In this document: piece after piece, positions 61,520 to 61,945 of the stretch
How the letters are laid out: every line of letters begins with the position of its first letter
Position numbering within the stretch: position 1 is the first letter of the stretch
Assembly (NCBI RefSeq): GCF_000027125.1
Contig: NC_017626.1
Reading direction: 5' to 3' (one strand)
Length of the DNA stretch: 64,000 bases
DNA from: Escherichia coli 042
GTDB lineage: Bacteria > Pseudomonadota > Gammaproteobacteria > Enterobacterales > Enterobacteriaceae
The notes under the pieces: generated by a model
Seen by the model: the letters and a program-made list of their open reading frames with translations, nothing else
Told to the model about the DNA's origin: nothing
Database searches by the model: none
Position numbers and translations under genes: made by a program

Positions 61520-61945
61520 ATGACGGCACAAATATCAGCTTACGGGCGGTTGGTGGCTGACCCGCAGTTAAAAACCACCAGCAAGGGAACACCAATGGCG
61601 CTGGTGAGTATGGCTGTTCCCCTTCCGTGCAGTCAGGCATATGACGGAACAGCGACGATGTGGTTATCCGTCCTGGCGTTTGGCAGACAGGCCGATGCAC
61701 TGGCAAAACACCAGAAAGGCGAACTGGTGAGCATGGCGGGTAACATGCAGATAAGCCAGTGGACAGACCAGAACGGGGAAATGCGGCAGGGCTGGCAGGT
61801 CATCGCAGACAGCGTAATCAGTGCGCGAACCGTGCGACCAGGAGGCAGGAAAGGACAGCAAGGGCAGGCTACTGACGCACTGAACAGAACAAAGCAGCAG
61901 ACGGGCCAGCAGGATGACCCGTATGAGGACGAAATACCATTTTAA
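61520..61945 (+). CDS. ssb: single-stranded DNA-binding protein
   Basis: 141-aa ORF; OB-fold pattern aligns with E. coli SSB (GRLVADPQL, WLSVLAFGRQA, QWTDQNGE), Gly/Gln-rich linker and acidic C-terminal tip DDPYEDEIPF. Confidence 0.75.
   Translation: MTAQISAYGRLVADPQLKTTSKGTPMALVSMAVPLPCSQAYDGTATMWLSVLAFGRQADALAKHQKGELVSMAGNMQISQWTDQNGEMRQGWQVIADSVISARTVRPGGRKGQQGQATDALNRTKQQTGQQDDPYEDEIPF

What the first reader, a model, noticed from the sequence alone, without database searches (positions are those of the whole stretch)
61520..61945. Island-encoded SSB with a host-like acidic DEIPF tip
The translation aligns motif by motif with E. coli SSB and ends in DDPYEDEIPF, the type of tip host SSB uses to recruit many replication and repair proteins. 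A mobile-element SSB with this tail could hijack or titrate host SSB interactors during island replication.
Basis: partly seen in the sequence, partly recalled or inferred. Interest (0 to 1): 0.45.

Follow-up and report, generated by a model that had tools for sequence, protein, structure and literature searches.

The report
Satellite-island SSB with canonical tail
This is an ordinary, already annotated single-stranded-DNA-binding protein gene in the replication module of a small phage-satellite-like island of E. coli, and its acidic ...IPF tail is the standard tail of the SSB family, not a special host mimic.

Summary
The ORF is real: 61520-61945 (+), 141 aa, ending DDPYEDEIPF. It is a genuine bacterial-type SSB. 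It passes the curated cut-offs of Pfam PF00436 and NCBIfam TIGR00621. AlphaFold2 gives a confident OB fold followed by a disordered tail, and every top PDB fold match is a bacterial SSB.

It is only 23% identical to E. coli SSB. It keeps the equivalents of W54, F60 and W88, but not W40 or H55.

The gene lies in an ~8.2 kb island at tRNA-Pro (proL). The island carries an integrase, an AlpA-like regulator, P4-type C4/isrK immunity RNAs, DUF4222, a DUF927 Rep helicase, a PICI-type iteron origin, ssb, ProQ/FinO and PerC. It has no packaging genes.

Homologous genes occur in 1744 of 5426 complete E. coli genomes. All listed rows except one partial match are annotated SSB. In related satellites, including capsid-forming PICI-like ones, ssb always follows the Rep gene and iterons.

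The [Y/F]-x-D-x-I-P-F tip is retained across the family and its distant relatives, so it is ancestral. dN/dS is 0.08-0.16.

Most likely the protein coats island ssDNA after induction and recruits host replisome proteins through the tip. Titration or hijacking of host partners is untested. Verdict: correct observation, already known, low interest.

The parts
61520..61945 (+). ssb gene, 141 aa plus stop. RefSeq annotates the near-identical island copy (99.1% DNA identity) in strain CAVP819 as WP_004013538.1, 'single-stranded DNA-binding protein'.
61520..61831 (+). OB-fold domain, codons 1-104, with W48/F54/W81 equivalent to EcSSB W54/F60/W88
   Evidence: AF2 pLDDT 88-97 over residues 1-100; Foldseek top 50 hits all bacterial SSBs, E about 1e-9; BLASTP alignment
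61832..61912 (+). short disordered linker, codons 105-131. It is Q/G/K/R-rich, has no PxxP motif, and varies in length and sequence among homologues.
   Evidence: pLDDT about 50-66; indels in the family alignment
61913..61942 (+). C-terminal tip DDPYEDEIPF, codons 132-141 (SSB-Ct type)
   Evidence: binding determinants of the SSB-Ct from PMC10164576
61309..61443 (.). origin-like iteron cluster between the Rep gene and ssb: 2 inverted plus 4 direct GGGACARG copies around an AT-rich stretch
   Evidence: 11 copies in the window against 2.3 expected, none of 100 shuffles reach 11; same layout with other iteron sequences in L002, L004 and L006; matches the PICI ori description in PMC6092414
59145..61283 (+). 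Rep helicase, 712 aa: DUF927 helicase part plus a TOPRIM-like N-terminal domain
   Evidence: Pfam DUF927 E=1e-46; PHROG 1139 'DNA primase' E=3e-166
58861..59148 (+). DUF4222 gene, overlapping the Rep start; conserved upstream partner of Rep in related satellites
61981..62517 (+). ProQ/FinO-family gene immediately downstream of ssb
   Evidence: E=1e-24
62514..62798 (+). PerC-family gene. In related satellites it directly follows ssb.
63598..63720 (.). second cluster of the same iteron: 3 inverted GGGACAAG plus 3 tandem GGTGGGACRGG, next to AT-rich DNA, near the island's right end
58213..58401 (+). P4-type immunity RNA region: isrK at 58213-58289 and C4 antisense RNA at 58314-58401
   Evidence: 52.9 and 77.7 bits, both above Rfam gathering scores
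57617..57808 (+). AlpA-like helix-turn-helix gene, 63 aa
56120..57364 (+). tyrosine integrase, 414 aa
55837..55913 (+). tRNA-Pro(GGG), the attachment site (left island boundary)
   Evidence: The right-hand repeat CTCTCGTGCC lies about 60 nt beyond the window end.

Best explanation
The gene encodes a bona fide but divergent bacterial-type SSB. It belongs to the replication module (Rep helicase, iteron origin, ssb) of a small P4/PICI-like integrated element at proL. Shown here: family membership, the OB fold, the disordered linker, the canonical tip, purifying selection, and the conserved position right after Rep and its iterons. Inferred: once the P4-type immunity is lifted, for example by a helper phage, the DUF4222-rep-ssb-proQ-perC genes are transcribed. 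Rep then melts the iteron origin and unwinds the island. The island's SSB coats the exposed single strands at a time when host SSB is limiting. Its ...EDEIPF tip docks into the usual SSB-Ct pockets of host proteins, so that the host replisome copies the island. Candidate partners, from general knowledge of the E. coli SSB interactome, are Pol III chi, DnaG and PriA. This is recruitment, as assumed for plasmid and phage SSBs, rather than sabotage.
For: Family membership passes curated thresholds. AF2 predicts an OB fold with pLDDT above 90 and a disordered tail, and only SSBs top the PDB fold search. W54, F60 and W88 equivalents are kept. The tip keeps the C-terminal Phe, the Pro and acidic residues, the features reported to matter for SSB-Ct binding (hydrophobic pocket, basic lip, basic ridge; deleting the Phe abolishes binding and Pro-to-Ser weakens it; PMC10164576). 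The ~27-residue linker exceeds the 11-20 residue minimum reported there. dN/dS against homologues is 0.08-0.16. The tip is kept in 100 of 120 family clusters while the linker changes by indels. ssb always follows a Rep gene and element-specific iterons in related satellites, including capsid-forming PICI-like ones and one recorded as a circular 22.9 kb plasmid. PICI literature already places SSB with Primase near mapped origins in a 'Replication zone' (PMC10111431) and describes origins as two iteron sets flanking an AT-rich region (PMC6092414). The SSB stays 67-74% identical (L002-L005 74%, L006 67%) across elements with different helicase types: DUF927, D5_N/DUF5906, and Zn-ribbon-Toprim-DUF927. 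That points to a common, host-side partner. F-plasmid SsbF partly complements host ssb mutants and colocalises with host Ssb, and host Ssb is numerically limiting for large amounts of ssDNA (PMC9849209).
Against: There is no experiment on this protein family: ssDNA binding, oligomeric state and partner binding are all inferred. The EcSSB tetramer residue H55 is Leu here and W40 is absent. Most family members have a less acidic tip (DDPYGDNIPF), and Klebsiella/Raoultella versions end in IPL, so affinity for host pockets may be lower or different. This island has no packaging or late genes, and its relative in strain CAVP819 has an ash pseudogene, so the element may no longer be mobilised. No promoter-like site was found directly upstream of ssb, so expression depends on read-through across the origin. 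P4 itself replicates without an SSB of its own (from memory; consistently, no phage record holds a close homologue), so an element SSB is not obligatory for this kind of replicon.
Confidence: 0.7

Rival explanations
1. One reading: the tail acts as a decoy. The island SSB titrates host SSB-interacting proteins, or takes them from the helper phage's replication. This would be a form of takeover or interference rather than simple self-replication.
For: The tip matches the host's in the residues that matter: F, P, I and three acidic residues, plus an aromatic residue at -7. Satellites commonly interfere with helpers (general knowledge). Up to 6 copies of the family occur per genome.
Against: The tip is ancestral to the whole clade, not a convergent mimic. 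Any SSB bound to ssDNA both recruits and competes, so 'titration' is not distinguishable from normal function by sequence. The gene sits in the replication zone next to the origin, not among interference genes. There is no PADLOC defence-family hit. It lies downstream of P4-type immunity, so it is probably not expressed in uninduced cells (inference).
Confidence: 0.12
2. The acidic tail mainly docks on the island's own Rep, as the C-terminal Phe tail of T7 gp2.5 docks on T7 polymerase and helicase-primase. The pair would then form a private replisome core.
For: ssb is always next to Rep and ori. Many of these Reps share the same TOPRIM-like N-terminal domain despite different helicase parts. 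DUF927 helicases of SCC elements are also encoded alongside element-specific SSB-like proteins (PMC10061031).
Against: The L006-type Rep has a different N-terminus (Zn-ribbon plus Toprim_3) yet pairs with a 67%-identical SSB with a similar tail. The tip follows the general bacterial consensus rather than an element-specific one. No complex model could be computed with the tools available.
Confidence: 0.13
3. The gene is a leftover in a decaying island and has no present function in this strain.
For: The island is only ~8.2 kb and has no capsid, terminase or Sid/Psu-type genes. Its close relative has an ash pseudogene. The right-hand att repeat is only about 10 bp. Deletion derivatives that fuse the Rep N-terminus to ssb codon 50 exist at the same locus in other strains.
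Against: The ORF, Rep, integrase and both iteron clusters are intact. Copies at least 99% identical occur in unrelated strains (one search lists 27 records). Family-level dN/dS is 0.08-0.16.
Confidence: 0.1
4. It is an establishment SSB like those of conjugative-plasmid leading regions. It would protect incoming single-stranded DNA and dampen SOS.
For: Plasmid SSBs are the best-known mobile-element SSBs (PMC9849209).
Against: The island has no relaxase, T4SS, psiB or ardA. The protein is 23% identical to host SSB, whereas plasmid SSBs are described as close homologues. The family is almost entirely chromosomal: 2262 of 2264 places.
Confidence: 0.02

Closest known systems
E. coli chromosomal SSB (P0AGE0; PDB 1eqq) and the bacterial SSB family PF00436/TIGR00621
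   Same: OB fold, aromatic residues W54/F60/W88, a disordered linker, and an acidic tip ending I-P-F with an aromatic residue at position -7.
   Different: 23% identity; 141 aa against 178 aa; W40 and H55 not conserved; shorter L2-3 loop; linker about 27 residues, Q/K/R-rich, without PxxP or glycine-rich repeats; encoded on a mobile island.
SSB family of the 'Replication zone' of Gram-negative PICIs and helper-embedded PICIs (Mageeney et al. 2023, PMC10111431), with PICI pri-rep-ori modules (Fillol-Salom et al. 2018, PMC6092414)
   Same: Same gene order: integration genes, Bro/immunity zone, then Primase/Rep, ori and SSB. The iteron origin has two iteron sets around an AT-rich core. Homologues 74% identical sit in capsid-forming PICI-like islands.
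   Different: This island lacks the Late/packaging zone and carries ProQ/FinO and PerC after ssb. The papers list SSB only as a gene family and do not analyse its tail or function.
Mobile-element SSBs that resemble the host's: F-plasmid SsbF (PMC9849209) and phage P1 SSB (from memory)
   Same: An accessory SSB carried by a mobile replicon, thought to supplement host SSB and work with host replication proteins.
   Different: Those are close homologues of host SSB and, for plasmids, lie in the conjugative leading region. This one is a distant, short clade tied to satellite Rep/ori modules.
SCC/SCCmec and SaPI replication modules with DUF927 helicases (Cch, SaPIbov1 Rep) and element-encoded SSB-like proteins (PMC10061031)
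   Same: A DUF927-type replicative helicase on an integrated element, encoded next to a small ssDNA-binding protein.
   Different: The SCC SSB-like proteins use variable tails to bind element polymerases or primases. Here the tail is the canonical bacterial SSB-Ct and there is no A-family polymerase gene.
Satellite phage P4 (alpha primase-helicase, ori/crr iterons, CI RNA immunity)
   Same: tRNA-adjacent integrase, AlpA-like gene, C4/isrK-type immunity RNAs, Icd-like gene, and two separated clusters of the same iteron, like ori and crr.
   Different: P4 has no ssb (from memory; no phage record holds a homologue above 31% identity). This island has no sid, psu or delta genes. Its Rep is DUF927-type.

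Membership tests
Bacterial-type SSB (Pfam PF00436 / NCBIfam TIGR00621) | Sequence match above the curated family thresholds | tested here: met
   PF00436 57.1 bits against 26; TIGR00621 61.5 against 53.95; PHROG 44 E=2.4e-37
Bacterial-type SSB (Pfam PF00436 / NCBIfam TIGR00621) | OB-fold beta-barrel with a helix between strands 3 and 4 | tested here: met
   AF2 gives strands 2-11, 16-19, 25-36, 44-54, helix 55-62, strands 69-82 and 88-100, with pLDDT 88-97. The top 50 Foldseek PDB hits are all SSBs.
Bacterial-type SSB (Pfam PF00436 / NCBIfam TIGR00621) | ssDNA-stacking aromatic residues (EcSSB W40, W54, F60, W88) | tested here: inconclusive
   W48, F54 and W81 match W54, F60 and W88. W40 aligns to C37. 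Three of four are kept.
Bacterial-type SSB (Pfam PF00436 / NCBIfam TIGR00621) | Disordered linker followed by an acidic tip ending [I/L]-P-F (SSB-Ct) | tested here: met
   The sequence ends EDEIPF. Residues 105-141 have pLDDT about 50-66. The tip is conserved in 100 of 120 family clusters.
Bacterial-type SSB (Pfam PF00436 / NCBIfam TIGR00621) | Homotetramer (or equivalent four-OB assembly) and high-affinity ssDNA binding | not testable with these tools
   Only a monomer model was possible. The EcSSB H55 equivalent is Leu. This needs biochemistry.
Gram-negative PICI / P4-like phage satellite | Integrase at a tRNA or other conserved site plus an AlpA-type regulator, all transcribed inward | tested here: met
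   tRNA-Pro 55837-55913, integrase 56120-57364, AlpA-like gene 57617-57808
Gram-negative PICI / P4-like phage satellite | Replication module: primase/Rep gene followed by an iteron origin with an AT-rich centre | tested here: met
   DUF927 Rep 59145-61283, then iterons 61309-61443. The same layout occurs in relatives. Origin activity was not tested.
Gram-negative PICI / P4-like phage satellite | P4-type RNA immunity (C4/CI and seqA-like isrK) | tested here: met
   RF01695 77.7 bits and RF01394 52.9 bits, both above gathering scores
Gram-negative PICI / P4-like phage satellite | Genes that hijack or build the helper's capsid or packaging (terS, capsid, sid/psu/delta, rpp/ppi) | tested here: not met
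   Between ssb and the right end there are only ProQ/FinO, PerC and small unassigned ORFs. Relatives L002-L005 do carry capsid, portal and terminase genes.
Gram-negative PICI / P4-like phage satellite | Induction, excision and transfer by a helper phage | not testable with these tools
   Needs experiment.
Conjugative-plasmid leading-region SSB | Located in a leading region with psiB/ardA on a conjugative element, and closely similar to host SSB | tested here: not met
   No such genes in the island. 23% identity to host SSB. 2262 of 2264 E. coli places are chromosomal.

The most novel reading that the evidence does not exclude
The satellite SSB clade could be a dedicated adaptor. Its host-type tip would couple a non-DnaB Rep helicase (DUF927, D5_N or AAA_25 type, with only a reduced TOPRIM-like domain) to host Pol III and DnaG. 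At the same time it would draw those limiting host factors away from the helper phage. Replication and helper interference would then be one mechanism. About a third of E. coli genomes carry one to six such latent SSB-Ct donors.
Probability: 0.1. Interest if true: 0.45.

Novelty: already known. Interest (0 to 1): 0.14.

Why it matters
It matters little on its own. RefSeq already annotates the gene as SSB in more than a thousand E. coli genomes. PICI literature already lists SSB as a replication-zone gene. A canonical acidic ...IPF tip is the rule for bacterial, phage and plasmid SSBs. The useful residue is modest. This short satellite-associated clade appears to be experimentally uncharacterised. 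It is widespread (1744 of 5426 complete E. coli genomes) and always sits beside the satellite origin. It therefore offers a simple handle for asking how satellites with non-DnaB helicases plug into the host replisome.

Tried and rejected
1. I looked for an attR repeat of the tRNA 3' end inside the window and found none of 9 nt or more. A 10-nt repeat, CTCTCGTGCC, lies about 60 nt beyond the window end in the near-identical locus L001.

2. The promoter and terminator scan of 61200-63400 found nothing above shuffle expectation upstream of ssb, so no independent ssb promoter can be claimed.

3. Conservation by region within the close family was uninformative: OB domain 0.875, linker 0.84, tip 0.85. 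dN/dS for the C-terminal part alone was saturated or undefined in three of four comparisons.

4. The invariance of D137 and F141 in alignment A1 is partly circular, because I chose the distant members by their tail. I therefore rely on the unselected counts.

5. Two literature searches were unhelpful: one was too loose and one returned nothing. In this library I found no paper characterising a satellite SSB functionally.

6. I considered a phage origin. The best phage hit is 31% identical, so the gene is not a recent capture from a known phage.

7. I considered a defence-system role. There were no PADLOC hits.

8. I considered a recombinase-partner role, as for the Sak4 SSBs of staphylococcal phages (PMC5499656). 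The island has no annealing-protein gene.

Full report
**Observation.** The ORF exists exactly as described: 61520-61945 on the + strand, with an ATG start, a GGAG 10 nt upstream and a TAA stop. It encodes 141 aa ending QQDDPYEDEIPF.
- It matches Pfam SSB (PF00436) at E=2.1e-15, 57.1 bits against a gathering score of 26.
- It matches NCBIfam TIGR00621 'ssb' at 61.5 bits against a cut-off of 53.95.
- It matches PHROG 44 'single strand DNA binding protein' at E=2.4e-37.
- Against PDB sequences the best hits are Thermus SSBs (7.6e-11). E. coli SSB 1eqq scores only 7e-6.

**Comparison with host SSB.** BLASTP against E. coli SSB gives 23% identity, E=6e-8.
- W48, F54 and W81 correspond to the ssDNA-stacking residues W54, F60 and W88.
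- W40 aligns to Cys37, and the tetramer-related H55 is Leu49.
- The linker is about 27 residues, against about 60 in the host protein.
- The tail Y-E-D-E-I-P-F aligns with the host's F-D-D-D-I-P-F.

So 'aligns motif by motif' is a fair description of the key motifs, but the protein is a distant relative and not a host-like copy.

**Structure.** I built a 72-sequence alignment. AlphaFold2 then gave mean pLDDT 82.9, with 88-97 over residues 1-100. The model shows the strand/helix order of an OB fold and a low-confidence C-terminal 40 residues. Foldseek against the PDB returned only bacterial SSBs among the top 50 hits (E about 1e-9, probability 1.0).

**Context.** The window is E. coli chromosome, running yeiQ ... 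radD, rplY, yejK, yejL, yejM.
- tRNA-Pro(GGG) lies at 55837-55913 and is followed by an ~8.2 kb insertion ending just before yejO.
- The gene order is: integrase (56120-57364), AlpA-like HTH (57617-57808), an ash/Icd-like region, DUF4222 (58861-59148), a 712-aa DUF927 protein (59145-61283), ssb, a ProQ/FinO-family gene (61981-62517) and a PerC-family gene (62514-62798).
- The ash/Icd-like region contains Rfam isrK (58213-58289, 52.9 bits) and C4 antisense RNA (58314-58401, 77.7 bits). These are the P4-type immunity RNAs.
- Only 52 of 5426 complete E. coli genomes carry at least 80% of this island.
- A 10-nt repeat of the tRNA 3' end lies about 60 nt past the window end in the near-identical locus L001.
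- The island contains no capsid, terminase or Sid/Psu-type gene.

**Origin next to ssb.** The motif GGGACARG occurs 11 times in the window against 2.3 expected, and no shuffle out of 100 reaches 11. Ten of the copies fall in two clusters.
- One cluster is at 61309-61443, between the Rep stop codon and ssb. It has two inverted and four direct copies around an AT-rich stretch.
- The other is at 63598-63720.

[quoted passage not shown] The first cluster fits that description. In related elements the Rep-ssb intergenic region also carries inverted and direct iterons, but with element-specific sequences: GGTAGACAG in L002/L004 and TGAACCAAC in L006.

**The family.** The word-indexed search found 789 homologues. 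Every hit that carries a source name is called single-stranded DNA-binding protein, and those names are mostly from Escherichia, with some Salmonella, Shigella, Citrobacter and Raoultella. By blastn, 1744 of 5426 complete E. coli genomes carry a homologous gene. Of these, 1066 cover at least 80% of the query. There are up to 6 places per genome, and 2262 of 2264 places are chromosomal. All listed rows except one partial match are annotated SSB, including O157:H7.
- A 74%-identical homologue sits in islands with the order int, alpA, DUF4222, D5_N/DUF5906 primase, small ORF, SSB, PerC, capsid, protease, portal, head-completion, HNH, TerS, TerL. That is a capsid-forming PICI-like layout (L002-L005).
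- A 67%-identical one follows a Zn-ribbon/Toprim/DUF927 primase-helicase (L006).
- Another lies on a 22.9 kb circular Klebsiella record typed as a plasmid, which looks like an excised satellite.
- No phage record has a homologue above 31% identity.

[quoted passage not shown] An SSB in this kind of island is therefore documented.

**The tail.**
- Among the 120 closest 90%-identity clusters, which were not selected on the tail, 100 end in IPF. The commonest tip is DDPYGDNIPF (45 clusters). The window's DDPYEDEIPF occurs in 8. The window's variant is thus the most acidic, most host-like version of a family tip whose constant parts are an aromatic residue at -7, Asp at -5 and I-P-F.
- The exhaustive profile-free search found 313 representative clusters at E of 1e-10 or better. 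These are mostly 125-150 aa SSBs, and their full-length members typically end [F/Y][D/N]D[D/E/P][I/L]PF.
- The tip is therefore inherited, not mimicry.
- According to PMC10164576, SSB-Ct pockets have three features: a hydrophobic pocket that buries the terminal Phe, a basic lip that holds its carboxylate, and a basic ridge that contacts the acidic residues. Deleting the Phe abolishes binding and Pro-to-Ser weakens it. The linker is poorly conserved and can be shortened to 11-20 residues. All of these requirements are met by the island protein's sequence.
- Pairwise dN/dS against homologues is 0.08-0.16, and the linker evolves by indels while the tip is kept.
- Klebsiella/Raoultella versions end in IPL.

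**Mechanism.**
- Shown: this is an SSB-family protein under purifying selection, placed immediately after a Rep helicase gene and an origin-like iteron cluster, in an element with P4-type immunity.
- Inferred: after derepression the operon is read through the origin (no separate promoter was detected). Rep opens the origin, the island SSB coats the single strands, and its tip recruits host SSB-interacting replication proteins.
- Precedent: F-plasmid SsbF partially complements ssb mutants and colocalises with host Ssb, and host Ssb copies are too few for large amounts of ssDNA (PMC9849209).
- The SSB remains 67-74% identical (L002-L005 74%, L006 67%) across elements with different helicase families. 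This favours a shared host partner over a private Rep partner. The private-partner model (T7 gp2.5-like) is not excluded, because many of these Reps share one N-terminal domain.
It has no specific support here, and there was no defence-family hit.

**Side findings.**
- Several E. coli strains carry in-frame fusions of the Rep N-terminus to ssb codon 50. The left breakpoints differ but the ssb breakpoint is identical. These deletions remove the helicase, the origin and the first 49 ssb codons. They show that the module decays in some lineages.

**Verdict.** However, the gene is already annotated as SSB in RefSeq, the family is already listed in PICI literature, and the tail is the generic SSB-Ct. 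Interest is low. The only open aspect is the uncharacterised biochemistry of this widespread satellite SSB clade.

Noticed in passing
window ~59386 and ~61668; loci L008/L009 5001-5519, L010 5001-5702: Other E. coli strains carry in-frame fusions of the Rep N-terminus to the SSB C-terminal part (P0279 172 aa, P0299/P0302 233 aa, P0344 147 aa). The Rep breakpoint differs (after residue 81, 141 or 55), but the ssb breakpoint is always codon 50 (...|SVLAFGRQ). In the proL island the junction uses a TATC microhomology, and the L010 junction reads GTATCC|GTC. Why the site GGTTATCCGTCC in ssb recurs as an endpoint is unexplained.
   Followed up: partly
window 63598-63720: A second cluster of the island's iteron lies about 2.2 kb from the first, near the right end. 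It has 3 inverted GGGACAAG copies about 21 bp apart, an AT-rich spacer, then 3 tandem GGTGGGACRGG copies followed by TATATATATA. The two-cluster layout recalls P4 ori and crr. Which cluster is the origin is unknown.
   Followed up: partly
[not shown]
   Followed up: partly
window 58213-58401: Rfam isrK and C4 antisense RNA both score above their gathering thresholds, inside a 198-aa ash-like ORF (58036-58632). This is a P4-type RNA immunity region upstream of the replication genes.
   Followed up: partly
window 61981-62798: A ProQ/FinO-family gene is inserted between ssb and a PerC-family gene, whereas in related satellites PerC directly follows ssb. An RNA chaperone and a PerC-type activator on a packaging-less island may be its cargo or regulators. 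Their function is not examined here.
   Followed up: no
locus L007 (NZ_CP033626.1, Klebsiella pneumoniae, 22,859 bp circular): A record typed as a non-mobilizable plasmid carries an integrase, AntA, DUF4222, Icd-like gene, primase-helicase, a 67%-identical SSB, PerC and a tape-measure gene. It looks like an excised, episomal satellite, or an assembly with a duplicated segment.
   Followed up: no
loci L006 7001-7447 and L007 7589-8035: The Klebsiella/Raoultella members of this SSB clade end in PPFDDSIPL, with Leu in place of the terminal Phe. That Phe is reported as essential for SSB-Ct binding in E. coli.
   Followed up: no
window 50258-52018: The host core gene radD lies about 4 kb upstream of the island's attachment site. 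From memory, its product is a helicase reported to bind the SSB C-terminal tip. This is almost certainly coincidence.
   Followed up: no
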